DNA from: an uncultured Acidobacteriota bacterium
Lineage (GTDB): Bacteria; Acidobacteriota; Vicinamibacteria; Vicinamibacterales; CAVVIG01
Assembly (NCBI GenBank): GCA_902825985.1
Contig: CADEDC010000019.1
Coordinates: forward strand, 14,137-78,136
Direction of reading: 5' to 3'
Length of the DNA stretch: 64,000 nt
In this document: one piece after another, positions 38,016-61,888 of the stretch
How positions within the stretch are numbered: the first letter of the stretch is position 1
Layout: each line of letters begins with the position of its first letter
Program-made: the position numbers and the translations under genes
Notes under the pieces: generated by a model
Told to the model about the DNA's origin: nothing
The model's database searches: none
What the model saw: only the letters and a program-made list of their open reading frames with translations

Positions 38016-38032
38016 TCCCGTCTCCATGGCCG

Positions 38033-39511
38033 CTACCACCGACCGCGGTAGATGGTGAAGACGTCCATCTGCTGTGGTCCCGGTCCCCAGTACATCTCGG
38101 TGAAGTAGATCTGCTCGAGGAACGGTGACAGCGCCGGGGTCCGTTGCACGAATTCGCCCGGGCTCTTGCCCTGCATGACGACGTAGTTCGGATGGCTTTC
38201 GAGCACTTTGGCCTCCATGCTCTGTCGTCGTTCACGCGTCGGCAGGGTATCGGTGAGACCGGCAAGATCGACAATGGTTCGCCGGGTCCGATAGGCGATG
38301 ATGCCGACGTCGTAGGTCGCGATGGTGTCTTCGCGGGCCATCTGCCGGTCCAGCCACTCGGCGATCGCGTGATGGTTGTCCGAGTAGCTTCGCTCGGCGA
38401 CCTTGACGCTGCGCCACGTCATGAACCCGATTGCCGCCGGTTGACCGACGACGAGCGCGAGCAGGACGACGGTGGCCAGCCCGACCCGCCTGGCATCGCC
38501 GCGAGGCAGGACGGCGGCCGGCGACCAGCGGCTCAGCCACCAGGCCGCGCACAGCAGCAGGAGCGGCGTGTACAGGGTCATGTAGCGACTGGCGACATTG
38601 ACGCCACGATACGAATACTGCGCGATGGCGCCGAGCGTCCACACCAGTGGCACGAGCCAGGGCAGCATGGCCGGGATGGAAAGCTGCCGCTGACGCCGCA
38701 TCGCCAGCGCCGCCACCAGGCTGGCTCCCAACACCAGCAGCGGCACCATCGTCGAGGCGCCCATGATGGCGATGGCATCGAAGGCGCTCTCCCACGGCGA
38801 CCCGGTCTGCCGAAGCTTGACGACGAAGCTGTTCGGGACGATCGTCCCGAAATGCAGCAGGGCGAAGGTCAGCCAGGCCCCCAGCGGCAGGGCGGCGCCG
38901 ACGCCGAACTTCACCGCGTCCGCCAGCCTCCCGGTGAGCAGGAACAGGAGGCCGATGAGCCCCACCAACAGCGCCACCTCGGGGCGTGCCAGCACGCCGA
39001 GTCCGAGGATGACACCGGCGACCGTCACCAGGCCGCCGCGCTCCGGCCGGGCGACGAACGCCGCGGCGAAGCCGAGCACGACGATCAGCGCTGCGAACCC
39101 ACCCTCCATCCCCGACACGGACCAGCGTTGAAACCAGGGATCGATCGCGAGGGCCAACGGCGGCAGCAGGCGCGCCGCCGGCGAGGTGCCGACCTGCCGC
39201 GCCAGCAGCCACACCGCCAGGACGCATGCCGCAGAACTGGTGAGGCTGACGATCTGTGCGACCGCCGGCGTCGAGCCGCCGAGCCAGGTGCCGAACGCCA
39301 GCACCAGCACCCAGAGCGGGCTGGTGGAGCCGTACGAGGGCTCACCCGGGTTGAACGCCATCCCGGCACCCTCGGCGAAGTTCCTGGCGTACACGAAGTG
39401 GATGTAGGAGTCGTCGGTCAGGTAGCCGCCATACAGCAGCCACGACACGGCGGCGAAGGCCGCTGCCAACGTGCCCGGCAGGGCCAGATGGCCAAACTTG
39501 GTTGAGCTCAT
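38033..39511 (-). CDS. Polytopic membrane protein, GT-C-like glycosyltransferase candidate (DD motif after TM1)
   Basis: 492 aa and more than 10 hydrophobic helices. 'YLTDDSYIHFVYARNFAEGAGMAFNPGEPSYGSTSPLW' immediately follows TM1, the position of the acidic motif in GT-C enzymes. Has a soluble C-terminal domain. Confidence 0.5.
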   Translation of the reverse strand: MSSTKFGHLALPGTLAAAFAAVSWLLYGGYLTDDSYIHFVYARNFAEGAGMAFNPGEPSYGSTSPLWVLVLAFGTWLGGSTPAVAQIVSLTSSAACVLAVWLLARQVGTSPAARLLPPLALAIDPWFQRWSVSGMEGGFAALIVVLGFAAAFVARPERGGLVTVAGVILGLGVLARPEVALLVGLIGLLFLLTGRLADAVKFGVGAALPLGAWLTFALLHFGTIVPNSFVVKLRQTGSPWESAFDAIAIMGASTMVPLLVLGASLVAALAMRRQRQLSIPAMLPWLVPLVWTLGAIAQYSYRGVNVASRYMTLYTPLLLLCAAWWLSRWSPAAVLPRGDARRVGLATVVLLALVVGQPAAIGFMTWRSVKVAERSYSDNHHAIAEWLDRQMAREDTIATYDVGIIAYRTRRTIVDLAGLTDTLPTRERRQSMEAKVLESHPNYVVMQGKSPGEFVQRTPALSPFLEQIYFTEMYWGPGPQQMDVFTIYRGRW

Positions 39512-41973: not shown

Positions 41974-41982
41974 GCTGTCCTC

Positions 41983-42387
41983 CTAGAACTGCCGCGTCAG
42001 ATCGCCGCCCCGCTTGCCTTCCGGCCGCGAGTGCCAATAGCTCGTGCCGCTCGGCTGGTGCACCATCGGATTGCCGCCAAACGTCCGGCGCAGGATCCCG
42101 ATCGGCGTCATCACCACCAGGTACATCGCCCCCATCACGATCGGCGTGGTGACCTTGGAGATCGCGTGCGCGATCGCCATCCAGCCGCGCTCGACCGGGC
42201 CGAGCCGGGTCGGGATCACCAGGCCGGCGAGCGCCAGGGCGCCGCCCAGCCCACCGAGCACGTAGGTCGTGACGGCGTTGTCGCGCCAGAACGCGATCCC
42301 GGCCAGCACCAGGAAGGCGATGCCGACCGTCAAGCCGAATTTTCGCCCCGCGGCGGCCGTCAATCGAGCTGGAACTCGTCCTGCCAT
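41983..42387 (-). CDS. SxtJ-like small membrane protein
   Basis: 134 aa, 3 hydrophobic helices ('FGLTVGIAFLVLAGIAFW', 'TYVLGGLGGALALAGLVIP', 'VTTPIVMGAMYLVVMTPIGIL'). Lies directly downstream of the carbamoyltransferase and overlaps its 3' end by 28 nt. Confidence 0.6.
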   Translation of the reverse strand: MAGRVPARLTAAAGRKFGLTVGIAFLVLAGIAFWRDNAVTTYVLGGLGGALALAGLVIPTRLGPVERGWMAIAHAISKVTTPIVMGAMYLVVMTPIGILRRTFGGNPMVHQPSGTSYWHSRPEGKRGGDLTRQF

Positions 42388-44186
42388 GCCTTCGTCTCCT
42401 TCCACTCCGGTTGCGCCGACTTCTCGAGCACGAACGGCCCGAGCACCAGCACGTCGATATTCGTGCGCATGAAACAGCGATAGGCGTCCTCGGGCGTGCA
42501 CACGATCGGTTCGCCGCGGACGTTGAACGACGTGTTGACCACCACCGGGCAGCCGGTGCGCGTCTCGAAGGCCTTGATCAGGTGATAGTACGAGCCGTTG
42601 GCCTCGGGCGTGACCGTCTGAATCCGCGCCGAGTAGTCGATGTGCGTCACCGCCGGGATGTCCGACCGCGGCACGTTCAGCTTGTCGATCCCCCACAGCT
42701 GATGCTGCGCGGCGGTCAGCGGGATGCACCGCTCCTTCTTCACCGGCGCCACCAGCAGCATGTAGGGCGAGTCGCTGTCGTGCTCGAAGTAGTCGGCCAC
42801 CCGCTCGCGCAGCACCGACGGCGCGAACGGCCGGAAGCCCTCGCGGAACTTGATCTTGATGTTCATGTCGGTCTGCATCTTCGGACTGCGCGGGTCGCCG
42901 AGGATGCTGCGGGCGCCGAGGGCGCGCGGGCCGAACTCCATGCGGCCGTCGAACCAGCCGACGATCTTCTCGTCCGCCAGGTGCCCGGCGACGTGGTCGA
43001 AGCGTTCGGGATCGGAGAAGCGGCGGTAGCCGGCGTTGACCGACTTCAGGTAGCTCTCGATCTGTTCGGGCGTGAACTGCGGGCCGAGGTACGAGGCGCG
43101 CATCGCATCGCGGCCCGGCACGACGGTGCGCGGCTGCTTGAAGTGGCGATAGTGAATCAGCTGGGCGACGCCGAGCGCGCCGCCGGCGTCGCCCGACGCC
43201 GGCTGGATCCAGACGTGCTTGAACGGCCCTTCGCGGAGCAGCCGGCCGTTGCCGACGCAGTTCAGCGCCACGCCGCCGGCGAGGCACAGGTTCTCGCTGC
43301 CCGTGCGCTTGTGGGCGGTGCGCGCCATGCGCAGCATGATCTCCTCGCAGACCGCCTGCACCGAACGGGCGAGGTCCATCTCCTTCTGGGTCAGCTTCGA
43401 TTCCGGCACGCGGGCCGGACCGCCGAACAGATCGGCGAACGCCTCGTTGGTCATCGTCAGGCCGGTCAGGTAGTTGAAGTACTTCTGATTCAGCCGGAAC
43501 GAGCCGTCCTCCCTGAGATCGAGCAGCTCCTTGTAGATCAGATCGACGTACTTGGGCTCGCCGTACGGCGCCAGCCCCATCACCTTGTACTCGCCGGAGT
43601 TCACCTTGAAGCCCGTGTAATAGGTGAACGCCGAATACAGCAGCCCCAGCGAGTCGGGCCAGTGCAACTCGTCGAGGATCTCGAGGGTGCTGCCGCGTCC
43701 GGCGCCGATCGACGCCGTCGCCCACTCGCCGACGCCGTCCATCGTGAGCACGGCGGCCTGCTCGAACGGCGACGGGAAGAAGGCGCTGGCCGCGTGCGCT
43801 TCGTGGTGCTCGGAGTAGAGAATCGGACCGCTGTAGCCGAGCTCCTGCTGCAGCGTCTTGTCGATGTAGAGCTTCTCCTTGATCCACAGCGGCCCGGCCA
43901 TCAGGAAGGACTGGAAGCCGCGTGGCACGACGCCGAGGTAGGTCTCGAGGATGCGCTCGAACTTCAGCAACGGCTTGTCGTAGAAGCCGACCGCCGCGAG
44001 GTCTGACACGGCGATCCCCGCCTCGCCGAGGCAGAAGCGCACCGCCTCGTGCGGGAAGCCGCTGTCGCCCTTCTTGCGGGTGAAGCGCTCCTCCTGTCCC
44101 GCCGCGACGATCTCACCGTTGCGCAGGAGGGCGGCTGCGCTGTCGTGGTAGAAGGCCGAGATGCCGAGAATGTATCGATCGCTCAT
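42360..44186 (-). CDS. Carbamoyltransferase (NodU/CmcH/TobZ family)
   Basis: 'ILGISAFYHDSAAALL...EERFTRKK', 'EHHEAHAASAF', 'GWFDGRMEFGPRALGARSIL', 'KFREGFRPFAPSV', 'VVVNTSFNVRGEPIVCTP'. Confidence 0.9.
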   Translation of the reverse strand: MSDRYILGISAFYHDSAAALLRNGEIVAAGQEERFTRKKGDSGFPHEAVRFCLGEAGIAVSDLAAVGFYDKPLLKFERILETYLGVVPRGFQSFLMAGPLWIKEKLYIDKTLQQELGYSGPILYSEHHEAHAASAFFPSPFEQAAVLTMDGVGEWATASIGAGRGSTLEILDELHWPDSLGLLYSAFTYYTGFKVNSGEYKVMGLAPYGEPKYVDLIYKELLDLREDGSFRLNQKYFNYLTGLTMTNEAFADLFGGPARVPESKLTQKEMDLARSVQAVCEEIMLRMARTAHKRTGSENLCLAGGVALNCVGNGRLLREGPFKHVWIQPASGDAGGALGVAQLIHYRHFKQPRTVVPGRDAMRASYLGPQFTPEQIESYLKSVNAGYRRFSDPERFDHVAGHLADEKIVGWFDGRMEFGPRALGARSILGDPRSPKMQTDMNIKIKFREGFRPFAPSVLRERVADYFEHDSDSPYMLLVAPVKKERCIPLTAAQHQLWGIDKLNVPRSDIPAVTHIDYSARIQTVTPEANGSYYHLIKAFETRTGCPVVVNTSFNVRGEPIVCTPEDAYRCFMRTNIDVLVLGPFVLEKSAQPEWKETKAWQDEFQLD

Positions 44187-44238
44187 TGTGTGTATGCCGC
44201 CAGTCACGCCGGGAGACGTTGCTCACATCGAAGTCTGA

Positions 44239-47890: not shown

Positions 47891-48000
47891 GGTCTCGCTC
47901 CCGAAAATCCCTTCCAGCCCCGGCCCTGGATGCCGTGCGCGCCCTGCGCCGACATGCACTTCACGCGACGGCCGTTGTCCCCGGCGACCTCTGCCACAGA

Positions 48001-48016
48001 GGCAAGACCTGAGCCA
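48001..48016 (-). promoter_or_regulatory. Sigma54-type -24/-12 promoter candidate (minus strand TGGCTC-AGGTC-TTGCC)
   Basis: TGGC and TTGC with exact GG-N10-GC spacing. Intergenic, about 110 nt upstream of GTG 47890. Confidence 0.45.
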
Positions 48017-48092
48017 GCCTCGGCGCTCCATCGTGATGGAGTTGCGGCCGTTCACTCACGTCGTAGAGGCGGTGTCTTCGAATTGTGGCAAC

Positions 48093-52912: not shown

Positions 52913-54924
52913 CAGCGGGACGGCACCGCGGCGTCGACGCGGTCGACGACGGTGCGAATGACGGCCGGCGCCGCCGCCTGGGGGCGCTGCCGGATGAACT
53001 GCTCGTGCAGCAACTGTGTCGACAGGATGGCGACGACCGCCATGTTGTCGGCGTTGGAGAACTGGCCGCCGGCGGCCCGGGCGCGGCACTTGGCGATGAG
53101 CTGTTCGGCCGCCGCCGGATTGAAGATGCCGGCCGCTGCAAGCGCCTCCCGGCTGGCCACCGCGTCGACCCACTCGCGTGCCTCGGGGGCCGCGAACGAG
53201 AGCGCGTCGGGGGCGCGATACGGCTGCTTCGGCCGGCTGAGAATCGACGCCGGAACGACGCCGCGCGCCGCCCGCTTCAGGACGTGCTTCTCGTCGAGCC
53301 CGCGCAGCTTGTAGGAAGCCGGCAGCGACTCGGCCAGGGCGGCGACGTTGCGATCGAGGAACGGGAAGCGCCCTTCGACCGAATTGGCCATCAGCATGCG
53401 GTCGCCCTGCGACGACAGCAGGTAGCCGGAGAGCAGCGTGACCACCTCCAGGTACTGATCCTGCGCGAGCGGCGACCAGGTCGCGAACGCCGGCGGCAGA
53501 CCGCCCGTCAGTTCGGCGATCGCATCGCCCGCCGGGTCGCGTCGCATCGCCGGTGCCAGCAGCCGCTTGAGCGCCGTGGCGCCGCGCCAGCGGAGATCGT
53601 GGCCGAAGCCCGGTGCCGCCGCCCGCTCGAGCCCCTGACCGAAGAACTGATGGGCGATGGCGCGCTGCGCAACCGGCGATCGTGCCAGGTAGGGATACAG
53701 GCGATCGAGCAGCCGCGGCCGCCAGGCCGACGCCGGCTGGCGGGCCCAGAATCGCCGGATGCGCGCCTCGCGGAACAGATCGTAGCCGGCGAACATCTCG
53801 TCGGCGCCTTCGCCGGTGAGCACGACCTTGATGCCCGCCTGACGCACCAGCCGCGACAGCAGCAGCAAGGGGGCGGGCGCGGTCCGCAGCAGCGGCCGTT
53901 CGCTGTGCAGCACGGTTTCGGGAAACGCGCGGGCGATGTCGCCGCGCGACACGACCAGCTCGTGGTGGTCGCTGCCGATGGCGGCGGCCATCTCGCGCTG
54001 ATAGCGCGTCTCGTCGTACTCGGCGTCCTCGAAGCGCACCGAGAAGGTCGAGAAGTTGGAGCCCTTCGCGCGCAGGCCGAGCGCGGCGATCAGCGAGCTG
54101 TCGAGTCCGCCGGAGAGGTACGAGCCGACCGGGACGTCGGCGCGCAGCATCCGCAGGCCGGTGGCCGCGGTCAAGGCGTCGCGCACCTGCTCGGCCGCCT
54201 CGTCGACGGTCGCGGCGGCCGGCGCCGTCGCGCCCGGGACGGGGAAGGCCGGCTCGTAGGATCGCGCGACGGTGACGCCGTCCGGTCCGTAGCTGCGGAC
54301 GGTGCCCGGCTCCACCTCCTCGATGCCGGCGAAGGCCGTGCGCGGCGCCATCGGCGCCCAGAAGGTCAGCACCTGATCGAGGCCGATCGGATCGATGCGG
54401 CGCGGCAGCGCCGGCTCGCCGGCGAAGAGCGCCTTCACTTCCGAGGCGAAGTAGAGACGGCCATCCTGCTCGGCGACGTGCAGCGGCCGCACCCCGAACG
54501 GATCGCGGGCGAGCGTGAGCGTCCGCGCCTCGCTGTCCCAGAGCGCGACCGCCCATTGGCCGTTCATGCGGCGGAACGCCTGGGCCCCCCACTCCTCGTA
54601 GGCGTGGACGATGACCTCCGTGTCGCTGCGCGTCCGGAACCGATGACCGCGGGCTTCGAGGTCGGCGCGCAGCTCGACGTAGTTGAAGATCTCGCCGTTG
54701 AAGACCACCCAGATGGTGTCGTCCTCGTTGGCGAGCGGCTGCTGTCCCGCGGCGAGATCGATGATCGACAGCCGCGCATGACCGAGCCCGACCTGCCGAT
54801 CCCGGTAGATGCCGAACTCGTCCGGCCCGCGATGCCGCAGGGCACCGGCCATCATCGCCAGCTGATCGCGATCGGGGGGCGCCAGATCAGCCCGACGATT
54901 GAGGATGCCGGCGATGCCGCACAT
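52912..54924 (-). CDS. asnB: Asparagine synthase (glutamine-hydrolysing) family amidotransferase (exosortase-A-associated amidotransferase-1-like)
   Basis: 'MCGIAGIL' and PP-loop 'YLSGGLDSS'. 670 aa. Confidence 0.9.
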   Translation of the reverse strand: MCGIAGILNRRADLAPPDRDQLAMMAGALRHRGPDEFGIYRDRQVGLGHARLSIIDLAAGQQPLANEDDTIWVVFNGEIFNYVELRADLEARGHRFRTRSDTEVIVHAYEEWGAQAFRRMNGQWAVALWDSEARTLTLARDPFGVRPLHVAEQDGRLYFASEVKALFAGEPALPRRIDPIGLDQVLTFWAPMAPRTAFAGIEEVEPGTVRSYGPDGVTVARSYEPAFPVPGATAPAAATVDEAAEQVRDALTAATGLRMLRADVPVGSYLSGGLDSSLIAALGLRAKGSNFSTFSVRFEDAEYDETRYQREMAAAIGSDHHELVVSRGDIARAFPETVLHSERPLLRTAPAPLLLLSRLVRQAGIKVVLTGEGADEMFAGYDLFREARIRRFWARQPASAWRPRLLDRLYPYLARSPVAQRAIAHQFFGQGLERAAAPGFGHDLRWRGATALKRLLAPAMRRDPAGDAIAELTGGLPPAFATWSPLAQDQYLEVVTLLSGYLLSSQGDRMLMANSVEGRFPFLDRNVAALAESLPASYKLRGLDEKHVLKRAARGVVPASILSRPKQPYRAPDALSFAAPEAREWVDAVASREALAAAGIFNPAAAEQLIAKCRARAAGGQFSNADNMAVVAILSTQLLHEQFIRQRPQAAAPAVIRTVVDRVDAAVPSR

Positions 54925-55913
54925 CAGCCGTGCACCTCGGCGATCGGCTCGACGAGCAGCGGACGCATGTGCAGGTATTTCGTCGTCCGGCGCTTCTGAT
55001 CGATGTCGCGGTACACCCGCGTCACCTGTTCGGCGGTCAGGCCGATCGCCGCGCCGACCTCGCCGGCCGGCACGCCGTGATTGCGGCCGTACAGGCAGAG
55101 GTCCATCTTCTGGTAGGGCAGCGCGAAGTAGTACTCTTCCTGCGATTGCGGCATCGAGAACGTGTCGGTCGTCGGCGGACGCCGGCGGATGTCCTCCGGC
55201 ACGCCGACGTGCTCGGCGAGGGCGTAGACCTGTGTCTTGTAGAGATGGGCGATCGGCTTGATGTCAGCGGCGCCGTCACCGAGCTTGACGAAGAAGCCCT
55301 GGTCGTACTCCAGACGGTTCGGCGTGCCGGCCACCACGTAGTTCAGACGATCCGCGTGGTAGTACTCGGTCATCTTGCGGACGCGCTGCTTGTAGTTGGT
55401 GGCGGCAATCATCTGCTGATAGGCGGCAGCCGACAGGCGCGACGTGTGGCGCTCACCGGTGGGTGACTCGATGGTCAACTCCGAGACGTTGAGCCGCTCG
55501 CCGTCGAGGATGGACGGCAGCGTGATCTTGCACTTGAACCCCGGACCATACTCGGGGAACACCGTGCGGATGGCCTCGATCTGCTTGTCGTAGCAGCCGG
55601 CGGCGGCGAGAATCGGCGCGATCTCTTCGAGCTGCGCCGGAACGCCGAGCTTCGTCGTCAGCATCCGGCCCAGGGTCAGCGACTCCGAGGACGAATCGCG
55701 CTCGGGCATGAACAGCACCTGCACGCGTTCGGCGCCCAGGGCGCGGACGCACAGGCAGGTGACGACCGAGCTGTCGATGCCGCCGGACAGGCCGACGACG
55801 ACGCCGCGGCGGTGCACCGACTGCACCTGCTGGCGTATGGCCTGTTCGATGGTGCTGGCGGTCTGTGCGAGATCGATCCGCAGCACGTCTGGAGTGAACG
55901 TCGTCTGAGACAC
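54924..55913 (-). CDS. NAD synthetase (NadE)-family PP-loop ATP-pyrophosphatase/amidoligase
   Basis: 'VVVGLSGGIDSSVV' PP-loop and 'YKQRVRKMTEYYHADRLNYVVAGTPNRLE'. GTG start. Stop shares one base with the asnB-like ATG. Confidence 0.75.
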   Translation of the reverse strand: MSQTTFTPDVLRIDLAQTASTIEQAIRQQVQSVHRRGVVVGLSGGIDSSVVTCLCVRALGAERVQVLFMPERDSSSESLTLGRMLTTKLGVPAQLEEIAPILAAAGCYDKQIEAIRTVFPEYGPGFKCKITLPSILDGERLNVSELTIESPTGERHTSRLSAAAYQQMIAATNYKQRVRKMTEYYHADRLNYVVAGTPNRLEYDQGFFVKLGDGAADIKPIAHLYKTQVYALAEHVGVPEDIRRRPPTTDTFSMPQSQEEYYFALPYQKMDLCLYGRNHGVPAGEVGAAIGLTAEQVTRVYRDIDQKRRTTKYLHMRPLLVEPIAEVHG

Positions 55914-55972
55914 GCTTTTTCCCTTTCGGTCGCTGACCCGTCGATAGTGGTGGAATGGTCGCGGACGTTACT

Positions 55973-55988
55973 AGCAAGGACCACTCCC
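55973..55988 (-). promoter_or_regulatory. Weaker sigma54-type candidate (minus strand GGGAGT-GGTCC-TTGCT)
   Basis: GG-N10-GC spacing and a perfect TTGCT -12. The -24 element is poor. Lies 60 nt upstream of GTG 55913 and 103 nt downstream of the palindrome at 56092-56115. Confidence 0.25.
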
Positions 55989-56091
55989 GCAGCCCAGCCG
56001 GCGTCAGAAACGTCGGCAAAGACAGGAGTTCTCCTGGCGTGCACCGGAACAGTCGCCGCCCCTCCGCCGGAAGTATCGGCTTCTCGGGAGA

Positions 56092-56115
56092 TTAGTCTCC
56101 AGAATCGGAGACTAA
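56092..56115. promoter_or_regulatory. Inverted repeat TTAGTC-N12-GACTAA (9-bp perfect arms TTAGTCTCC/GGAGACTAA)
   Basis: AT-rich palindrome in the divergent intergenic region between the NadE-like gene (-) and the LMW-PTP gene (+). Same architecture as the 1215, 60861 and 48093 sites. Confidence 0.4.
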
Positions 56116-56279
56116 GTTCCCGCGCCGCCGCTGAATCATATCTTGCGCAGCCGTATGTATCGGCGTCTCCGCCGCCGCCGCCGACCGGCCGGACCCTATG
56201 CTAACGTCGAAAGACAGTGGCTCAGGAGGCGTCTCTTCCCGCGCGGTGGCTGCGCCGGGTGCTCACGTCGGCCCCGGCG

Positions 56280-56843
56280 ATGGAGTTCAAGCGCGCGGCG
56301 CGTGACGCCGTCTGGGCGCTGCGCGAACGGGGCGTCCAGAACCCGCCGTGGCCGGCGCGGGTCGACGGTGTGCTCTTCGTCTGTTACGGCAACATCTGCC
56401 GCAGCCCGTTCGCGGCGCGGCTCGCCGCCCTCCGCCTCGAGCAGGCCCGGATTTCCGGCATCCGCTGCGCGTCGGCTGGATTTCGCACCAGCCAGCGGGC
56501 CGCTTCGCCGCCCGACGCCGTCGCCACCGCGCGGCGCTACCAGGTGCAGCTCGAAGACAACCGGCCGACGCTCCTCAGCGACGAGCTGGTGCGCTCGCAC
56601 GACGTCGTGTTCGTCATGGAGCCCGGTCATCTGGCCCAGTTGCGGCGGCGCTGGCCGACCGAACATGCACGGTTCTTCCTGCTGCCGCGCTTCGAGGTGC
56701 CGGAGCCGGGTGTCGGGCCCTTCGAGCGGGTGCACTTCGTCGACCCGTTCGGCCGCGGCGAAGCGGCCTTCGTCGACTCCTACGCCCGGATTGCCCGGGC
56801 CGTGGACCGGGTCGTCGCCCTCTGTGCCGCATCCCGCAGCTGA
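56280..56843 (+). CDS. Low-molecular-weight protein-tyrosine phosphatase (Wzb-like)
   Basis: 'VLFVCYGNICRSPFAA' (C-X5-R-S P-loop) and a 'DPFG' Asp loop. Start uncertain (GTG 56217 or ATG 56280). Confidence 0.75.
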   Translation: MEFKRAARDAVWALRERGVQNPPWPARVDGVLFVCYGNICRSPFAARLAALRLEQARISGIRCASAGFRTSQRAASPPDAVATARRYQVQLEDNRPTLLSDELVRSHDVVFVMEPGHLAQLRRRWPTEHARFFLLPRFEVPEPGVGPFERVHFVDPFGRGEAAFVDSYARIARAVDRVVALCAASRS

Positions 56844-56891
56844 CCGCCGGCGTCCGGTGGATCAGCTTTTGCGAAAGGTCCGCCGCGCACG

Positions 56892-58334
56892 ATGATCATG
56901 AAAACGGTGGCGACGGCCGGCGAACGCGTGCTGTGTGTGGATCTGGACGGGACGCTGATCGTCGGCGACATGCTGTGGGAGAGTCTGATTGCCCTGGTGC
57001 GCCGGCGCCCCTGGGCGGTGCTCCTGCTGCCGCTGTGGCTGCTGCGCGGGCGCGCCCACCTGAAGCAGCAACTGGCCCGGACGGCGGCCGCCGATCTGGA
57101 CGTCGCCGCCCTGCCGTACCGAGACGAGGTGGTGTCGCTGATCCGGCGCGAATTCGCCCGCGGACGCCCGGTCGTGCTCGCGACCGCCTCCGACGTCAGG
57201 CTGGCCTCGGCGGTGGCCAACCACCTGGGAGTGTTCTCCCAGGTGCTGGCGAGCGACGGCACGGTCAATCTCAAGGGGCGGGCCAAGGCCGCGCTGCTGG
57301 TCAAGACCTTCGGCGCCCAATGCTTCGACTATATCGGCGACAGTCCGGCCGACATCCCGGTCTGGCAGTCGGCCGCCACGCCGTGGCTTGCCGGCCATGC
57401 CAGAATCACCGGGGTGGCGAATCTGCAGGCGGTGCATACCGAGGCCGGCTACGGCAGCGAACGCGGTCGCATGATCGTCAAGGCCCTGCGTCCGCACCAG
57501 TGGTTGAAGAACCTGCTCGTCTTCATCCCGGCGGTGGCGGCCCACCGGTTCGACCCGGAGACGATGGTCGCCGTCGTCTGTGCGTTCACGGCGCTGTCGC
57601 TGTGCGCCTCGGGCGGCTACGTGCTGAACGATCTGCTCGACGTCGCCAACGACCGCCGGCATCCGCGCAAGCGCCATCGCCCGTTCGCGTCCGGGCGGCT
57701 GTCGATCGGCGTCGGCATCGGCCTCATCGGCGTCACCTGGCTGGCCGGCTTCGGGCTGGCGGCGGCGACGCTGCCGTTGTCGTTCGTCCTGTTGGCGGCC
57801 GGGTATCTCGTGACCACTGCGGCGTATTCGACCGCGCTCAAGCGCATCGCGGTGCTCGACGTCATGGTGCTGGCCGGCCTCTACGTGGTCCGGGTGCTCG
57901 CGGGCGGCCTGGCAGCGTCCATCATGGTGTCGAGCTGGCTGCTCGCCTTTACACTGTTCGTCAGCCTGAGCCTGGCGTTCCTGAAGCGCTTCATCGAGGT
58001 CCGGGCGGCATCTGCCAGCGATGCGACACACATCCCGGGGCGCGGCTATCGGACCGACGATGCCGGCTGGCTGCATTCGGTGGGCCTGACGTCGGCCTAT
58101 CTCGGGGTCCTCGTCCTGGCGCTGTACGCGAACAGCACCGATGTCACACGGCTCTACGCCCATCCCGAGCGCCTGCTGCTGACCTGTCCGGTCGTCCTGT
58201 TCTGGGCGACCCGCACCTGGTTTCTCGCGCACCGCGGCGAACTGCACGACGATCCGGTCGTCGCCGTCGCGCTGGATCCGGTAACGTACGTCGTGCTCGG
58301 CGTCGCCGGTCTGACGGTGCTCGCGTCGTTCTGA
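56892..58334 (+). CDS. Fusion: HAD-like phosphatase + UbiA-family polyprenyl-phosphate phosphoribosyltransferase (Rv3806c-like)
   Basis: HAD 'LCVDLDGTLI', 'LATAS', 'YIGDSPADIP'. UbiA 'HQWLKNLLVF...YVLNDLLDVANDRRHPRKRHRPFASG' plus about 8 TM helices. Confidence 0.8.
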   Translation: MIMKTVATAGERVLCVDLDGTLIVGDMLWESLIALVRRRPWAVLLLPLWLLRGRAHLKQQLARTAAADLDVAALPYRDEVVSLIRREFARGRPVVLATASDVRLASAVANHLGVFSQVLASDGTVNLKGRAKAALLVKTFGAQCFDYIGDSPADIPVWQSAATPWLAGHARITGVANLQAVHTEAGYGSERGRMIVKALRPHQWLKNLLVFIPAVAAHRFDPETMVAVVCAFTALSLCASGGYVLNDLLDVANDRRHPRKRHRPFASGRLSIGVGIGLIGVTWLAGFGLAAATLPLSFVLLAAGYLVTTAAYSTALKRIAVLDVMVLAGLYVVRVLAGGLAASIMVSSWLLAFTLFVSLSLAFLKRFIEVRAASASDATHIPGRGYRTDDAGWLHSVGLTSAYLGVLVLALYANSTDVTRLYAHPERLLLTCPVVLFWATRTWFLAHRGELHDDPVVAVALDPVTYVVLGVAGLTVLASF

Positions 58335-58357
58335 GCGGCGCTGCCGTGGCCTGCCGT

Positions 58358-59740
58358 ATGGGAAATGCGTCACACTTGAGAGTTGCCGCGTCGAATCCGG
58401 CGCCCGAACGGGTCCCTGCCGGCGCCGAGCGCGCCGGTTCGCTGACCGGCTGGGGCCGCGTGCCGGTGGTGTCCGGCTACGAGCGCCGATCCGAGGATCT
58501 CGAGGCCATCACCCGGGACGTGCCGCTGACGCGTGGCCTGGGTCGCGCCTACGGCGACGCGGCGCTGCCGGCCGCGCCCGATCGCTGCATCGCGAACAGC
58601 ACGCTCGCCGATCGCATCCTGCGCTTCGATCCCGGCACCGGCGACATCGTCGCCGAAGCCGGCGTCTCGCTGGATCTGCTCTATCGCACGTTGCTGCCGC
58701 GCGGCTGGTTCACGCCGGTCACGCCGGGCACCCGCTTCGTCACGCTCGGCGGCATGGTGGCGTCCGACGTGCACGGCAAGAACCACCATGTCGACGGCTG
58801 CTTCGGTCGCCACGTCACCGGGCTGCGACTGCGCGTCGCCGACGGCCGGATCGTCACCTGCTCGCCGACCGAGCACCCGGACCTCTTCCGCGCCACCGTC
58901 GGTGGCATGGGCCTCACCGGTCACATCCTCGAGGTGGCGTTCCGGCTGACGCGAGTGCCGTCGCCCTGGATCTTCCAGGAGACCCAGCGGCTGCCCGATA
59001 TCGATGCCTTCATCGAGGCGCTCAAGGCGTGCGCCGCGACCTGGCCGATGACAATGGGCTGGATCGACTGCCTGTCGAAGGGCCGGGCGATGGGGCGCGG
59101 CGTGCTGTTCCGCGGGCGCTGGGCGACGGCCGGCGAGGCGCCGCAGGCCTTTCCAGCGCTCGGCGCGCCGATTCCGGTGCCGTTCACCTTTCCGCACGGC
59201 GTGCTCGGCCGATCGACGGTGCGGCTGTTCAACGAGGTGTACTATCGCGTCCCGCGGCCGCGCGCGGCAGTCGTCCATCCGAAGTCGTTCTTCTATCCGC
59301 TCGACGTCGCCGGCCACTGGCACCGCCTGTACGGGCCGCGCGGCTTCACCCAGTATCAGTGCGTGCTGCCGGCGTCGGGCGGCCACGGCGCCGCCCGCCG
59401 TTTCCTCGAGGTCGTCACGCGCGGCAGCGGCGCCTCCTTCCTCTGTGTGATCAAGGACTGCGGCGCCGAGGGTGACGGCCTGCTCTCGTTTCCGAAGCCG
59501 GGCATCTCGATTGCGCTCGACCTGGCGATGCGTGACGACACCCAGGCGCTCGTCGACCAGATGAACGAGCGCGTCATCGCCGAGGGCGGCCGCATCTATC
59601 TGGCGAAGGACGCCTTGACCCGGCCGGAACACTTCCGCGCGATGGAGTCGCGTCTCGACACGTTCCTCGACATCCGGCGGACGTGGGACCCGCAAGGGCG
59701 AATCCGCAGCGCGCAGTCGGTGCGGCTGTTTGGCTGGTGA
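58358..59740 (+). CDS. dprE1: FAD-dependent oxidoreductase, decaprenylphosphoryl-beta-D-ribose 2'-oxidase (DprE1)-like
   Basis: 'TRGLGRAYGDAAL', 'VTLGGMVASDVHGKNHH' and 'GGRIYLAKDA'. The track ORF from 56348 is an over-extension. Confidence 0.75.
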   Translation: MGNASHLRVAASNPAPERVPAGAERAGSLTGWGRVPVVSGYERRSEDLEAITRDVPLTRGLGRAYGDAALPAAPDRCIANSTLADRILRFDPGTGDIVAEAGVSLDLLYRTLLPRGWFTPVTPGTRFVTLGGMVASDVHGKNHHVDGCFGRHVTGLRLRVADGRIVTCSPTEHPDLFRATVGGMGLTGHILEVAFRLTRVPSPWIFQETQRLPDIDAFIEALKACAATWPMTMGWIDCLSKGRAMGRGVLFRGRWATAGEAPQAFPALGAPIPVPFTFPHGVLGRSTVRLFNEVYYRVPRPRAAVVHPKSFFYPLDVAGHWHRLYGPRGFTQYQCVLPASGGHGAARRFLEVVTRGSGASFLCVIKDCGAEGDGLLSFPKPGISIALDLAMRDDTQALVDQMNERVIAEGGRIYLAKDALTRPEHFRAMESRLDTFLDIRRTWDPQGRIRSAQSVRLFGW

Positions 59741-59747
59741 TGGAGCG

Positions 59748-60494
59748 ATGGCGTTGAAAGTGGTCGTACTCGGCGGAACGAAAGGGATCGGGCGGGCGCT
59801 CGCCCGGCAGTTGGCCGCCCGGGGCGACCAGGTCCACCTGCTCGGCCGGGACGCCGAGGAACTGGCGAAGTGCGCCGCCGATCTGCAGGCGCGCCGGCCG
59901 TCGCCCGCGCCGGTCGGTTTCACGTCGTGCGATCTCGAACGCCCCGAGGGCTTCGCGCCGGCGCTCGCCGCCGCCGATGCGGCGCTCGGCGGCTTCGACA
60001 CCGTCGTCGTCACCGCTGGACTGTTCGCCACGCAGGCACGGCTGCAGTCGGATCGCGAGTTCACCCGTCGTCTGCTCACCGTCAACTTCGCGCACACCGT
60101 CGTGTTCTGCGAAGAGGTCCGCGAGTACCTGCTGGCGCGCGGCGGCGGGACGTTGTGCGTCGTCAGTTCGGTGGCCGGCGAGCGTGGCCGCAAGCCGGTG
60201 GTGCTGTACGGCGCGTCGAAGGCCGGCCTCAGCGCCTATCTCGAGGGCCTCGACCACGCGTTCCGGGGCGCCGGACTACGGACGATCTGCGTGAAACCGG
60301 GGTTCGTGCGGACGTCGATGACCGACGGGTTGCCGGAGCCGCCGTTTGCCGCCGAGCCGGAGCAGGTCGCCACCACGGTGGTCCGGGCGATCGACCGCGG
60401 GACGCCGGTCGTCTACGCGCCGCCGATCTGGGCACTGGTGATGATGGTGATCCGACTCCTGCCGCGGGCCGTCATGCGGCGCATCGGATTCTGA
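59748..60494 (+). CDS. dprE2: Short-chain dehydrogenase/reductase, DprE2-like
   Basis: 'VVVLGGTKGIGRALARQLA' and 'YGASKAGLSAYLEGL'. About 250 aa. Start ATG 59748 (GGAG upstream) or TTG 59730. Confidence 0.7.
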   Translation: MALKVVVLGGTKGIGRALARQLAARGDQVHLLGRDAEELAKCAADLQARRPSPAPVGFTSCDLERPEGFAPALAAADAALGGFDTVVVTAGLFATQARLQSDREFTRRLLTVNFAHTVVFCEEVREYLLARGGGTLCVVSSVAGERGRKPVVLYGASKAGLSAYLEGLDHAFRGAGLRTICVKPGFVRTSMTDGLPEPPFAAEPEQVATTVVRAIDRGTPVVYAPPIWALVMMVIRLLPRAVMRRIGF

Positions 60495-60550
60495 CGCCGC
60501 CGGCCACGTCCGGGTGGACCTGGTCCGACGGATGGTGGGGACTTTCCCGG

Positions 60551-60739
60551 CTAGTGCGACCGCTGCCCGGCGAGGCCGGGAATTTCCGTCGCCTTGTTAC
60601 GCCCCTGCGACTTGGCGTTCAGGCTGCGCGCGACCATGGCAGCTACGATGAGGCCGATGCCCCAACCTGCGATCCACATGGGTTCGGACAAATTCACGTA
60701 CTGGACGTTCGAGAACCACGACATTTGAGAGGACAGCAT
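60551..60739 (-). CDS. Hypothetical small single-TM protein (62 aa)
   Basis: 'MLSSQMSWFSNVQYVNLSEPMWIAGWGIGLIVAAMVARSLNAKSQGRNK...'. The 5' end is unusually AT-rich. No family recognised. A sigma54-like element and a palindrome lie upstream. Confidence 0.3.
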   Translation of the reverse strand: MLSSQMSWFSNVQYVNLSEPMWIAGWGIGLIVAAMVARSLNAKSQGRNKATEIPGLAGQRSH

Positions 60740-60762
60740 ATTTTCGAATCCACCATCTATGC

Positions 60763-60778
60763 TGCAAACAGTGGTCCT
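60763..60778 (-). promoter_or_regulatory. Sigma54-type candidate (minus strand AGGACC-ACTGT-TTGCA)
   Basis: GG-N10-GC with a perfect TTGCA -12. Only about 24 nt upstream of ATG 60739. Lies 82 nt downstream of the palindrome at 60861-60884. Confidence 0.3.
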
Positions 60779-60860
60779 GTCCTAAAGGTGTCGTCGGATT
60801 TGCGGTAACTACCTGTCCTCAAGTCCGTTACTGGCATTCATCGGGGGAGAGCCCACCGGC

Positions 60861-60884
60861 TAAGTCATCCTTGAAGAAGACTTA
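60861..60884. promoter_or_regulatory. Inverted repeat TAAGTC-N12-GACTTA
   Basis: Lies in the low-GC intergenic patch between the SBP gene stop (60929) and the small ORF. Same architecture as 1215-1238 and 56092-56115. Confidence 0.4.
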
Positions 60885-60928
60885 CATCAGGACTTCGGCG
60901 ACCGTTCTCCTTTTTGGACCTGCCAGCG

Positions 60929-61888
60929 CTACTGTGGCGCGGTCGGATGGAGGGCCTGCGCGAGCGCCCGGGCGGCCTCCACCAGCCGCGGCCCGGGAAT
61001 GACAAATTCGTCTCCTTGAAGGACATACACCTGCCGGCGTTGAACCGCCGGGACGGCCGAGAGCGGGTCCCACTCTCCAACGAGGCGCGCCAGCGCCGGC
61101 GCCGACAACGTCCGGCCGTATTTCACTTCGACGATCACGTCGGGGGCCCGCGCCAGCACTGTCTCGGTGCTCATCTCGACTGATTCCCGGCGAACGTCGC
61201 CCATCACATCCTCGCCACCCGCCAGCTGCAGCAGGTCGTGCAGGAAGCCGTAGCCGCCACTGGCCTGAATCCGGCGCAGCGAGCCCGCTTCGCGTCCGAA
61301 GACCAGCAGCGTCCGCGGCCGCGGACGGCCGGCCACCCGCTGACGGATCGCATCCAGCTGCCGCTCCAGGTCGGTCGCCGCCCGTTCGGCAGCGGCCGCT
61401 GCGCCGATTCGCCGCCCGACCGCCCGGATGGTCTGCGTGACATCCGCGAGATCGCGATGCACGTACTCGAACTGGGGGATCCTGGCCCGGTCCAGCTGGA
61501 CGCGGAGATCGCGCTGCGTTCCATAGACGATCACCAGGTCCGGTCGCAGCGACAGCAGCCGTTCGGCGTTGGGATCGAGGAGGCCGCCGACGCGCGGCAG
61601 CCGCGTCGCCGCCTCGGGAAACCGATCGTAGGTGCTGACGCCGACCACCCGGTCGCCGGCGCCGATGGCGAAGAGCATCTCGGTGACCGCCGGCACGAAC
61701 GACACGATCCGCCGCGCCGGCGTGCCGGCGGTCGCCGCCGGCGTCTGCCCGGTTCCGGCGCCGGCCATATCACCGCCGGATGCGACGCCGGCGATGACCA
61801 GGACGCCGACGAGCAGTCCGGTCAGAGGTCCCGGCCGCCAGCCGGCCGGCGGCCGGGTGTCACTCAGTCGTGGCGGAAGAGCAGCCAT
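60929..61888 (-). CDS. ABC transporter periplasmic substrate-binding protein (BtuF/FecB-like, cobalamin/iron-chelate family)
   Basis: 'RIVSFVPAVTEMLFAIGAGDRVVGVSTYDRFP...LRPDLVIVYG'. Start set at ATG 61888 (the track ORF to 62314 is an over-extension). Overlaps the permease stop by 25 nt. Confidence 0.8.
   Translation of the reverse strand: MAALPPRLSDTRPPAGWRPGPLTGLLVGVLVIAGVASGGDMAGAGTGQTPAATAGTPARRIVSFVPAVTEMLFAIGAGDRVVGVSTYDRFPEAATRLPRVGGLLDPNAERLLSLRPDLVIVYGTQRDLRVQLDRARIPQFEYVHRDLADVTQTIRAVGRRIGAAAAAERAATDLERQLDAIRQRVAGRPRPRTLLVFGREAGSLRRIQASGGYGFLHDLLQLAGGEDVMGDVRRESVEMSTETVLARAPDVIVEVKYGRTLSAPALARLVGEWDPLSAVPAVQRRQVYVLQGDEFVIPGPRLVEAARALAQALHPTAPQ

What the first reader, a model, noticed from the sequence alone, without database searches (positions are those of the whole stretch)
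56892..60494. Mycobacterial-type polyprenyl-phospho-arabinofuranose (DPA) donor pathway, with the phosphatase step fused to the UbiA enzyme
Seen directly, three consecutive genes encode:
- a HAD-phosphatase::UbiA fusion ('NDLLDVANDRRHPRKRHRPFASG', as in 5-phosphoribosyl-1-pyrophosphate:polyprenyl-phosphate phosphoribosyltransferases such as Rv3806c)
- a DprE1-like FAD oxidase ('GLGRAYGD')
- a DprE2-like SDR of about 250 aa

Established knowledge: these steps make decaprenyl-P-arabinofuranose in Corynebacterineae. Homologues supply D-Araf for pilin glycosylation in some Pseudomonas and for Nod-factor arabinosylation in Azorhizobium.

Inference: the fused HAD domain replaces the separate PAP2 phosphatase (Rv3807c step). 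The lipid-linked Araf produced is the donor for the GT-C-like protein at 38033-39511. Together these predict a D-arabinofuranosylated EPS or glycoprotein.
Basis: partly seen in the sequence, partly recalled or inferred. Interest (0 to 1): 0.65.

Follow-up and report, generated by a model that had tools for sequence, protein, structure and literature searches.

The report
Lipid-linked arabinofuranose donor genes
Three adjacent genes in a large slime-polysaccharide locus of an uncultured Gram-negative bacterium very probably make a lipid-linked D-arabinofuranose donor, but this gene set, including the phosphatase fusion, is already described and widespread, so the finding is correct and fairly ordinary.

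Summary
56892-58334 encodes a HAD phosphatase fused to a UbiA-type phosphoribosyltransferase. 58358-59740 encodes a DprE1-like FAD oxidase. 59730-60494 encodes a DprE2-like SDR. Their best solved relatives are Rv3806c, DprE1 and DprE2.

The distant membrane protein at 38033-39511 is a GT-C enzyme. Its only clear solved homologue is the mycobacterial arabinofuranosyltransferase AftB (family profile E = 7e-25), and AftB's catalytic Asp and donor-contact residues are kept. Members of its family sit inside or next to the three-gene set in genomes assigned to other lineages.

The novelty claim fails. The fusion is a curated NCBIfam family (NF006088). It was characterised biochemically in Citrobacter youngae ORF15 (Kelly et al., PNAS 2024, PMC11127046), where DprE1/E2 partners mark Araf-containing glycans. 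It has thousands of homologues. In 35 of 65 representative genome loci the fusion, DprE1-like and DprE2-like genes lie in this same order.

What is particular here:
- an AftB-like rather than GT136-type transferase, 17 kb away
- no recognisable flippase in the window
- a Wzx/Wzy exopolysaccharide locus whose genes resemble exosortase-A-associated families, below their cut-offs

Verdict: new member of a known kind, modest interest. No chemistry was tested.

The parts
56892..58334 (+). Bifunctional polyprenyl-phosphate 5-phosphoribosyltransferase / phosphoribose 5-phosphatase. The HAD (PRP) domain covers about residues 12-166 (nt 56925-57389). The UbiA (PPPRS) domain covers about residues 190-480 (nt 57459-58334).
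   Evidence: - NCBIfam NF006088: 565 bits against a cut-off of 351, aligned over residues 8-478.
- Pfam HAD plus UbiA.
- PDB by sequence: Rv3806c 8j8j, E = 1e-27.
- AF2 model pLDDT 88.5. Foldseek top hit 8j8j (2e-10) for the membrane domain; SerB-type HAD phosphatases for the N-terminal domain.
- Invariant in 20 homologues: D17, D19, T21, K132, D154, N246, D247, D250, D254, R255, K365, R366, E369. These correspond to the residues mutated in ORF15.
58358..59740 (+). DprE1-like FAD-dependent oxidase. Predicted reaction: polyprenyl-P-ribofuranose to the 2-keto intermediate.
   Evidence: - NF053785: 377 bits, full length, below the equivalog cut-off of 500.
- PDB DprE1: about 1e-74 over residues 10-449.
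- DVHGKNHH (H139, K141) and YLAKD (K417) align with DprE1 H132, K134 and K418. Ala386 replaces the benzothiazinone-target Cys387.
- A DprE1-like gene immediately follows the fusion gene in 35 of 65 genome loci.
59730..60494 (+). DprE2-like SDR reductase. Predicted reaction: the 2-keto intermediate to polyprenyl-P-arabinofuranose.
   Evidence: - adh_short, E = 5e-35.
- NF053786 (DprE2): 171 bits against a cut-off of 250. NF005489: 221 bits against a cut-off of 267.
- The best PDB hit is DprE2 21gq_C (5e-29), nine orders of magnitude ahead of the next SDR.
- GGTKGIG at residues 15-21 and YGASK at residues 160-164.
38033..39511 (-). AftB-like GT-C glycosyltransferase, the proposed periplasmic D-Araf transferase that uses the lipid-linked donor. 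The link to the three donor genes is inferred.
   Evidence: - Nine predicted TM segments.
- AF2 pLDDT 89.3; Foldseek top hit AftB 9dlf_C at E = 3e-9.
- phmmer: AftB 2e-6. Family profile: AftB 7e-25, next PDB hit 0.076.
- NCBIfam AftB-type model NF041481: 3e-9 but only 35 bits.
- D34, T63, E136, R176, S228 and R309 align with AftB D62, T91, E172, R221, T274 and R372.
- Family members lie next to or inside the three-gene set in L002, L006, L076 and L091.
56217..56843 (+). Low-molecular-weight protein tyrosine phosphatase (Wzb-like), co-oriented and 48 nt upstream of the fusion gene. It probably regulates polysaccharide synthesis and is not a pathway enzyme.
   Evidence: - Pfam LMWPc, E = 1.6e-19.
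- The same LMWPc-then-fusion adjacency occurs in relative L085.
41983..44207 (-). O-carbamoyltransferase (42360-44207) plus an SxtJ-like small membrane protein (41983-42387). They head the minus-strand gene string that contains the GT-C. They are associated by synteny and are not shown to be part of the pathway.
   Evidence: - Pfam Carbam_trans_N and Carbam_trans_C, and SxtJ.
- In relative L085 the orthologues (83% and 69% identity) follow the DprE2-like gene directly.
- In L087 the same set lies near the GT-C orthologue.

Best explanation
The three genes form a cytoplasmic-face pathway that makes polyprenyl-phosphate (most likely undecaprenyl-phosphate) beta-D-arabinofuranose from PRPP.

1. 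[quoted passage not shown]
2. Its N-terminal HAD domain removes the 5-phosphate.
3. The DprE1-like flavoenzyme oxidises C2.
4. The DprE2-like SDR reduces it with inversion, giving the arabino configuration.
5. After flipping by a transporter not found in this window, the AftB-like GT-C at 38033-39511 transfers D-Araf in the periplasm. The acceptor is the exopolysaccharide built by the surrounding Wzx/Wzy locus, or less likely a protein.

What rests on what:
- Shown by sequence and fold: the identity and catalytic residues of all four proteins.
- Shown in homologues by others: the chemistry of steps 1-4.
- Inferred here: the lipid carrier, the link to this particular GT-C, and the acceptor.
For: - Family and structure matches for the three enzymes.
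- Catalytic residues conserved in the fusion family, matching the mutagenised residues of C. youngae ORF15.
- In 38 of 65 representative genome loci the fusion gene has both DprE1- and DprE2-like genes. In 35 they lie immediately downstream in this order, in genomes assigned to Xanthomonadales, Burkholderiales, Acidobacteriota, Nitrospirales, KSB1 and Kapabacteria.
- Kelly et al. 2024 found DprE1/E2 homologues in exactly those systems whose glycans contain Araf.
- GT-C: AftB is the only significant solved homologue of the family profile (7e-25 against 0.076) and the top fold match. AftB's catalytic Asp and five donor-contact residues are kept.
- A family member lies between the fusion and DprE1 genes in a Blastocatellia genome (L006), just downstream of DprE2 in KSB1 (L002), and between GtrA and DprE1 in Cereibacter azotoformans (L091).
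- Synteny bridge: the three donor genes are followed directly by the carbamoyltransferase/SxtJ set in L085, and that set lies in the same minus-strand gene string as the GT-C in the window and near its orthologue in L087.
- The three genes are embedded in the same locus type in relative L083/L084.
- A TonB-dependent receptor fragment shows a diderm host.
Against: - The DprE1- and DprE2-like proteins score below the NCBIfam equivalog cut-offs (377 of 500; 171 of 250).
- The GT-C scores 35 bits against a cut-off of 1050 for the AftB model and is about 20% identical to AftB. It lies 17 kb away on the other strand.
- More distant members of its family have none of the three donor genes within 10 kb.
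- No GtrA-, SMR- or ArnE-type flippase was found in the window.
- No sugar chemistry exists for this uncultured organism.
Confidence: 0.72

Rival explanations
1. The three genes do make lipid-linked D-Araf, but the donor is used by a transferase encoded outside the window (for O-antigen, pilin or another glycan). The GT-C at 38033-39511 would then use a different lipid-linked sugar.
For: - The GT-C is 17 kb away on the opposite strand.
- In most other genomes the transferase and flippase are adjacent to the donor genes: GtrA in 13 of 38 loci with both DprE genes, and PMT_2-type GT-Cs.
- More distant members of this GT-C family lack the three donor genes nearby.
- A membrane-anchored GT2 at 17305-18477 could in principle make another polyprenyl-P-sugar. 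It has a weak ArnC-type hit of 37 bits.
Against: - It is the only GT-C found in 64 kb.
- AftB's donor-contact residues, including the Glu that binds the Araf C5-OH, are conserved.
- Family members are embedded within the donor operon in four unrelated genomes.
- The GT2 scores best against MftF/PgaC-type models rather than GtrB/ArnC-type synthases.
Confidence: 0.18
2. The oxidase/SDR pair does not perform a C2 epimerisation. The end product would be lipid-linked ribofuranose, a keto-pentose, or another pentofuranose such as Xylf.
For: - Both proteins fall below the equivalog cut-offs.
- In 23 of 65 loci the fusion occurs without them, so Ribf is a valid end product of the fusion alone.
- Other epimerases give Xylf in C. 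youngae O2.
Against: - The alignments to DprE1 and DprE2 are full length, with the DprE1 His/Lys and Lys motifs and the DprE2 YxxxK motif kept.
- DprE2 is the top PDB hit by nine orders of magnitude.
- The Xylf systems use a single, different SDR epimerase (ORF13), not a DprE1/E2 pair.
Confidence: 0.07
3. The UbiA domain is an aromatic (quinone or heme) prenyltransferase and the HAD domain is a phosphoserine-type phosphatase, as the JGI automatic names for homologues suggest ('4-hydroxybenzoate polyprenyltransferase/phosphoserine phosphatase').
For: - Automatic annotations on homologues.
- The N-terminal fold resembles SerB.
Against: - UbiA, CyoE and MenA-type models score 40 bits or less, against 151 bits for DPPR synthase models and 565 bits for the fusion family.
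- Rv3806c is the top hit by sequence and fold.
- The motif is NDxxDxxxD, as in PRPP-using enzymes.
- The fusion is constantly linked to DprE1/E2 and to GT-C or GtrA genes.
Confidence: 0.02

Closest known systems
Three-component pentofuranose side-chain system of Citrobacter youngae O1/O2 (ORF15 PRP::PPPRS, ORF14 flippase, ORF12 GT-C/GT136; Kelly et al., PNAS 2024, PMC11127046)
   Same: - The same N-terminal HAD (PRP) plus C-terminal UbiA (PPPRS) fusion, with the same catalytic residues at almost the same positions.
- The same logic: a polyprenyl-P-pentofuranose donor made from PRPP, then periplasmic transfer by a GT-C.
- The paper states that Araf-containing glycans have DprE1/E2 homologues in such systems.
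   Different: - Here the epimerase pair is present, so the product is Araf rather than Ribf or Xylf.
- The candidate GT-C is AftB-like rather than ArnT-like GT136, and it is not adjacent.
- No small 4-TM flippase is present in the window.
- The setting is a Wzx/Wzy exopolysaccharide locus rather than an ABC-transporter O-antigen locus.
Mycobacterial decaprenyl-phosphoarabinose pathway (Rv3806c, Rv3807c, DprE1/Rv3790, DprE2/Rv3791) with AftB
   Same: - The same four chemical steps.
- The best solved-structure matches for all enzymes come from this pathway.
- The transferase candidate is a homologue of AftB with conserved donor-site residues.
   Different: - The phosphatase is a fused HAD domain rather than a separate PAP2 protein.
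- The carrier is presumably undecaprenyl rather than decaprenyl phosphate.
- DprE1 Cys387 is Ala here.
- The GT-C is 492 aa against AftB's 669-aa PDB chain, and about 20% identical.
- The host is a diderm, and the glycan is an exopolysaccharide rather than arabinogalactan or LAM.
Pseudomonas aeruginosa Pa5196/PA7 D-Araf pilin glycosylation genes with TfpW (bioRxiv 10.1101/2020.04.19.049825; discussed in PMC11127046)
   Same: A Gram-negative lipid-linked D-Araf donor made by Rv3806c, DprE1 and DprE2 homologues and used by a GT-C-type enzyme in the periplasm.
   Different: - According to PMC11127046 the P. aeruginosa transferase lacks the fused PRP domain and uses a separate phosphatase.
- The acceptor there is pilin. 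No pilin or tfpW-like gene is present in this window.
Azorhizobium/Rhizobium noeC(N)HOP Nod-factor arabinosylation operon (PMC5080398)
   Same: noeC, noeH and noeO are orthologues of the mycobacterial DPA-pathway genes. That Nod factor is also carbamoylated, by NodU.
   Different: - The acceptor is a lipo-chitooligosaccharide.
- The transferase NoeP has no mycobacterial orthologue.
- The phosphatase candidate NoeN is a separate gene.
- I did not compare sequences directly.

Membership tests
PRP(HAD)::PPPRS(UbiA) bifunctional polyprenyl-phosphoribose synthase (NCBIfam NF006088 / C. youngae ORF15 type) | Full-length match above the curated cut-off | tested here: met
   565.3 bits against a cut-off of 351. 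Residues 8-478 align to profile positions 8-478 of 482.
PRP(HAD)::PPPRS(UbiA) bifunctional polyprenyl-phosphoribose synthase (NCBIfam NF006088 / C. youngae ORF15 type) | N-terminal HAD domain with the DxDxT nucleophile loop (ORF15 D18) | tested here: met
   CVDLDGTL at residues 15-22. D17, D19 and T21 are invariant in 20 homologues. The N-terminal fold matches SerB-type HAD phosphatases.
PRP(HAD)::PPPRS(UbiA) bifunctional polyprenyl-phosphoribose synthase (NCBIfam NF006088 / C. youngae ORF15 type) | UbiA loop motifs NDxxDxxxD and R..E (ORF15 N247, D248, D251, D255, R366, E369) | tested here: met
   N246, D247, D250, D254, R366 and E369 are invariant.
PRP(HAD)::PPPRS(UbiA) bifunctional polyprenyl-phosphoribose synthase (NCBIfam NF006088 / C. 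youngae ORF15 type) | Closer to PRPP-using Rv3806c than to aromatic prenyltransferases | tested here: met
   By sequence, 8j8j at 1e-27 is the only PDB family hit. By Foldseek, 2e-10 against 5e-5 or worse for other UbiA structures. By NCBIfam, 151 bits against 40 bits or less.
PRP(HAD)::PPPRS(UbiA) bifunctional polyprenyl-phosphoribose synthase (NCBIfam NF006088 / C. youngae ORF15 type) | PRPP-dependent formation of polyprenyl-P-ribose and removal of the 5-phosphate | not testable with these tools
   This needs a membrane assay with PRPP and farnesyl- or undecaprenyl-phosphate.
DprE1 (decaprenylphosphoryl-beta-D-ribose oxidase, NF053785) | Score above the equivalog cut-off | tested here: not met
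   377.1 bits against a cut-off of 500, although it aligns to model positions 4-447 of 449. It is best described as DprE1-like.
DprE1 (decaprenylphosphoryl-beta-D-ribose oxidase, NF053785) | FAD_binding_4 fold with the active-site His/Lys (H132, K134) and K418 | tested here: met
   DVHGKNHH at 137-144 and YLAKD at 414-418 align with the DprE1 motifs. Cys387 is Ala386. From my own knowledge, Cys387 is the site of covalent benzothiazinone binding and is not needed for catalysis.
DprE1 (decaprenylphosphoryl-beta-D-ribose oxidase, NF053785) | Genetic pairing with a DprE2-type SDR and a phosphoribosyltransferase | tested here: met
   The genes are adjacent in the window. The same order occurs in 35 of 65 genome loci.
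DprE2 (NF053786) | Score above the equivalog cut-off | tested here: not met
   170.6 bits against a cut-off of 250. NF005489 'SDR family oxidoreductase' scores higher, at 221 bits against a cut-off of 267.
DprE2 (NF053786) | Closest solved relative is DprE2; SDR cofactor and YxxxK motifs present | tested here: met
   21gq_C at 4.6e-29 over residues 11-252; the next SDR is at 2.9e-20. GGTKGIG at 15-21 and YGASK at 160-164.
AftB-type arabinofuranosyltransferase (GT-C; NF041481) | GT-C fold | tested here: met
   AF2 pLDDT 89.3. The top 26 Foldseek hits (E <= 0.001) are all GT-C enzymes, with AftB first.
AftB-type arabinofuranosyltransferase (GT-C; NF041481) | Score above the equivalog cut-off | tested here: not met
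   35.5 bits against a cut-off of 1050. It is a distant homologue, not an AftB orthologue.
AftB-type arabinofuranosyltransferase (GT-C; NF041481) | Catalytic DD motif and donor-contact residues (D62, T91, E172, R221, T274, R372 of M. chubuense AftB) | tested here: met
   D33-D34, T63, E136, R176, S228 and R309 align with them. The AftB residues are from PMC12041299. D34, E136 and R176 are invariant in the family alignment.
AftB-type arabinofuranosyltransferase (GT-C; NF041481) | Retaining beta-(1->2) Araf transfer from polyprenyl-P-Araf | not testable with these tools
   This needs an enzyme assay and linkage analysis.
Three-component extracytoplasmic pentofuranose system (Kelly et al. 2024) | Dedicated small flippase (4-TM ORF14/ArnE-like, or GtrA) encoded with the synthase | tested here: not met
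   A GtrA profile built from 11 synthase-adjacent proteins found no hit in six-frame ORFs of the window. Such a gene may lie outside the 64 kb.
Three-component extracytoplasmic pentofuranose system (Kelly et al. 2024) | GT-C of family GT136 | not tested
According to the paper the closest structure to ORF12 is ArnT, whereas this GT-C is closest to AftB. It is therefore probably a different GT-C family.

The most novel reading that the evidence does not exclude
The AftB-like GT-C family seen here, and in genomes assigned to Blastocatellia, KSB1 and Burkholderiales and in Cereibacter, may be a diderm counterpart of the mycobacterial retaining enzyme AftB. It would then cap or decorate an exopolysaccharide with beta-linked D-Araf. 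Kelly et al. [quoted passage not shown] AftB is so far the only structurally characterised retaining GT-C. The donor would have to be flipped by a transporter of a type not yet linked to these systems, since none of the known types is present in the window.
Probability: 0.2. Interest if true: 0.5.

Novelty: new member of a known kind. Interest (0 to 1): 0.27.

Why it matters
- It predicts a testable feature of an uncultured bacterium's surface polymer: D-arabinofuranose, a sugar rare outside Corynebacterineae.
- It adds a documented case in which the known PRPP-to-lipid-Araf module is recruited into a Wzx/Wzy exopolysaccharide locus that resembles exosortase-A-associated loci.
- Its most useful by-product is the link between an uncharacterised family of AftB-like GT-C proteins (no Pfam hits are on record for most of them) and this module in several distantly related genomes. 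That gives the family a plausible donor, and gives AftB researchers non-mycobacterial homologues for comparison.
- It does not reveal a new mechanism.

Tried and rejected
- A genome scan with the single fusion protein found no confirmed relative. It worked only with an alignment.
- A Pfam call with wrong frames failed. The gene at about 10800-12098 was then resolved as DUF218::SGNH.
The MOP/Wzx-like protein at 5024-6670 is more simply the repeat-unit flippase.
- The promoter and terminator scan of 55800-61000 was uninformative: 0 promoter-like sites, and terminator-like sites at the chance level.
- Direct tblastn of the window's GT-C against 80 synthase loci found nothing at E <= 1e-10 with 50% coverage or more. 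Only a family HMM revealed the relatives.
- The 447-aa membrane protein that follows the carbamoyltransferase set in L085 could not be assigned to any family.
- The taxon could not be fixed. The best named relatives of the fusion protein are only about 50% identical. I inferred a diderm, possibly a proteobacterium, from the TonB-dependent receptor fragment. Supporting this, Pfam domains HSP70, Fer2 and Fe-S_assembly, read as an hscA-fdx-iscX string, lie next to the syntenic locus in L084.

Full report
**Observation**

- 56892-58334 (480 aa) carries a HAD domain (PF12710, residues 17-157) and a UbiA domain (PF01040, residues 215-422).
- The second gene is hidden inside a long spurious ORF (56348-59740). 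It most likely starts at ATG 58358 (460 aa). It has an FAD_binding_4 domain and aligns end to end with the DprE1 model NF053785 (E = 1.5e-112).
- 59730-60494 (254 aa) is a classical SDR that matches the DprE2 model NF053786 (E = 4.5e-50).
- The quoted peptide motifs are present.
- The best solved structures by sequence are Rv3806c DPPR synthase (8j8j, 1e-27), DprE1 (about 1e-74) and DprE2 (21gq_C, 5e-29; next SDR 3e-20).
- Spacing of 23 nt or less, or an 11-nt overlap, indicates one transcription unit. A Wzb-like low-molecular-weight tyrosine phosphatase gene lies 48 nt upstream.

**The fusion protein**

The whole protein matches NCBIfam NF006088 (PRK08238) over residues 8-478 with 565 bits against a cut-off of 351, so the fusion is already a curated family. 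DPPR-synthase models score about 151 bits. Heme O synthase and 4-hydroxybenzoate prenyltransferase models score 40 bits or less.

An AlphaFold model (pLDDT 88.5) has 8j8j as its top PDB match (E = 2e-10, 29% identity). That is five orders of magnitude ahead of generic UbiA structures. Its N-terminal domain matches SerB-type HAD phosphatases.

In an alignment of 20 homologues these residues are invariant:
- HAD loop residues D17, D19, T21, K132 and D154
- UbiA residues N246, D247, D250, D254, R255, K365, R366 and E369

They correspond almost position for position to D18, N247, D248, D251, D255, R366 and E369 of Citrobacter youngae ORF15. Kelly et al. (PNAS 2024, PMC11127046) mutated those residues. 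They also showed biochemically that the UbiA part makes polyprenyl-P-ribose-5-P from PRPP and that the HAD part removes the 5-phosphate. The same paper notes that Rv3807c is an unrelated phosphatase.

**How common is it**

The protein database returned more than 7,600 homologues at E <= 1e-10, nearly all with both domains. A scan of one genome per species found at least 575 loci. They include Xanthomonas albilineans, Stenotrophomonas maltophilia, Dyella, Paraburkholderia, Acidobacteriota, Nitrospira, Planctomycetota, KSB1 and others. Eighty-eight plasmid or chromid records carry it as well.

Of 65 loci with at least 4 kb of downstream sequence:
- 38 have both a DprE1-like and a DprE2-like gene, and in 35 these lie immediately downstream in the order seen here
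- 4 have only one of the two detectable
- 23 have neither, and presumably stop at ribofuranose or use other epimerases

Kelly et al. state that DprE1/E2 homologues accompany the synthase in those systems whose glycans contain Araf. The pathway's role in Pseudomonas pilin and Azorhizobium/Rhizobium Nod-factor arabinosylation is also in the literature.

**The epimerase pair**

Both proteins fall below NCBI's equivalog cut-offs (377 of 500 and 171 of 250), so I call them DprE1-like and DprE2-like rather than orthologues.
- The DprE1 motifs holding H132/K134 and K418 are kept (DVHGKNHH at 137-144; YLAKD at 414-418).
- The benzothiazinone-target Cys387 is Ala386.
- The SDR has GGTKGIG and YGASK.

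**The proposed consumer**

The protein at 38033-39511 (minus strand, 492 aa, nine predicted TM segments) has only a sub-threshold PMT_2 hit in Pfam. Other evidence is much stronger.
- Its single significant PDB hit by sequence is the arabinofuranosyltransferase AftB (9dlf_C, E = 2e-6).
- Its best NCBIfam hit is the AftB-type model NF041481 (3e-9, but 35 bits against a cut-off of 1050).
- A profile of its 21-member family hits AftB at 7e-25 across the whole membrane domain. The next PDB entry is at 0.076.
- The AlphaFold model (pLDDT 89.3) has AftB as top structural match, followed by other GT-C enzymes.
- The AftB structure paper (PMC12041299) names D62 as the essential catalytic Asp of a DD motif, and T91, E172, R221, T274 and R372 as donor contacts. 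In the alignments these correspond to D34, T63, E136, R176, S228 and R309 of the window protein. D34, E136 and R176 are invariant in the family.

Gene-neighbourhood evidence points the same way. An HMM of this family finds members in these positions:
- between the fusion and DprE1 genes in a Blastocatellia genome (L006, 4e-38)
- 1.4 kb downstream of DprE2 in a KSB1 genome (L002, 3e-72)
- 1.1 kb upstream of the fusion gene in a Burkholderiales genome (L076, 9e-35)
- between the GtrA and DprE1-like genes in Cereibacter azotoformans (L091, 3e-18)

There is also a synteny bridge.
- In relative L085 the three donor genes are followed directly by orthologues (83% and 69% identity) of the carbamoyltransferase and SxtJ-like genes.
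- In the window those two genes head the minus-strand string that contains the GT-C.
- In L087 they lie near the GT-C orthologue.

The link is still indirect. The GT-C is 17 kb away, and more distant family members have none of the three donor genes within 10 kb.

**What is missing**

Elsewhere the module usually includes a small flippase. GtrA is present in 13 of 38 loci with both DprE genes, and an EamA-family (SMR-like) protein in Azospirillum. In C. youngae it is a 4-TM ArnE-like protein. Nothing of either kind is detectable in the window.

**Setting**

The window is one large Wzx/Wzy-type exopolysaccharide locus. It contains:
- several GT4 and GT2 enzymes
- two asparagine-synthase-like amidotransferases
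- FemAB-like acyltransferases, an acyl carrier protein and an AMP-ligase
- an AT3-SGNH O-acyltransferase
- two carbamoyltransferases
- a GDP-heptose-type gene set

Several of these resemble exosortase-A-associated families, below their cut-offs. In relative L083/L084 the three donor genes are flanked on both sides by such genes, so they belong to the locus. A TonB-dependent receptor fragment and an ABC importer downstream show a diderm host. The organism is uncultured, and the closest named relatives of the fusion protein are about 50% identical.

**Verdict**

The best explanation is synthesis of polyprenyl-P-D-Araf from PRPP. After flipping by an unidentified transporter, the AftB-like GT-C would transfer Araf to the locus's polysaccharide.

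The system is a new member of a known kind. It differs in the type and distance of the transferase, the absence of a recognisable flippase, and the polysaccharide context. I give it modest interest. Its main added value is that it assigns a likely donor to an uncharacterised family of AftB-like GT-C proteins in diderm bacteria.

Noticed in passing
window 2911-4161 (+): A DegT/DnrJ-type sugar aminotransferase gene is a single reading frame interrupted by an in-frame TAG at 3673-3675. The orthologue in relative L084 is an intact 414-aa gene. This is either a nonsense mutation (pseudogene) or an assembly error.
   Followed up: partly
window 41827-44207 (-) and 46391-48055 (-); L085 12802-15164: An SxtI/J/K-like set: an O-carbamoyltransferase (NodU-like), an SxtJ-like 3-TM protein and a tiny downstream ORF (the DUF5989 position), plus a second carbamoyltransferase. 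In relative L085 this set follows the DprE2-like gene directly. That suggests carbamoylation is functionally coupled to the arabinosylation module.
   Followed up: partly
window 36567-38039 (-) and 39722-41257 (-): Two right-handed beta-helix (NosD-like) proteins flank the GT-C, and the orthologous GT-C in L087 is also preceded by one. They could be periplasmic polysaccharide-modifying or -cleaving enzymes. Their role is unknown.
   Followed up: no
window 29093-33031 (+): A gene set typical of GDP-D-glycero-D-manno-heptose synthesis: a dehydratase/epimerase-like SDR, a nucleotidyltransferase, a GHMP kinase and a SIS::HAD (GmhA::GmhB-like) fusion. It suggests the polymer contains a heptose or 6-deoxyheptose.
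   Followed up: no
window 10800-12098, 12058-14178, 14570-17359 (+): Three unusual domain fusions in the locus: DUF218::SGNH hydrolase, GFO_IDH_MocA oxidoreductase::NAD-epimerase (706 aa), and ATP-grasp::FemAB-like acyltransferase (929 aa).
   Followed up: no
window 279-1181, 1492-1761, 20673-22088, 35132-36139, 51335-54924: Several genes resemble exosortase-A (PEP-CTERM) locus families but score below their cut-offs: TIGR03097, TIGR03098, TIGR03100 and TIGR03108, plus a DUF3473 deacetylase and an ACP. No exosortase gene was seen in the window.
   Followed up: partly
L085 15362-16705: A 447-aa multi-TM protein lies at the end of the fusion/DprE1/DprE2/carbamoyltransferase operon in a relative. 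It has no Pfam, NCBIfam or PDB match and no homologue in the window. It may be another kind of lipid-sugar transferase.
   Followed up: partly
L090 7513-10419 (Azospirillum lipoferum 4B plasmid AZO_p3): A 968-aa protein annotated 'UbiA family prenyltransferase' has about 490 extra N-terminal residues ahead of the HAD::UbiA part. It is followed by a 124-aa EamA-family transporter. This is a larger fusion variant of the synthase.
   Followed up: no
L082 7351-14545: In a 63%-identical relative the fusion gene has no DprE1/E2. It is instead surrounded by a GT2::GtrA fusion, a PMT_2 GT-C, an unassigned 487-aa protein and a GT87 GT-C. This probably represents a ribofuranose variant with several transferases.
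   Followed up: no
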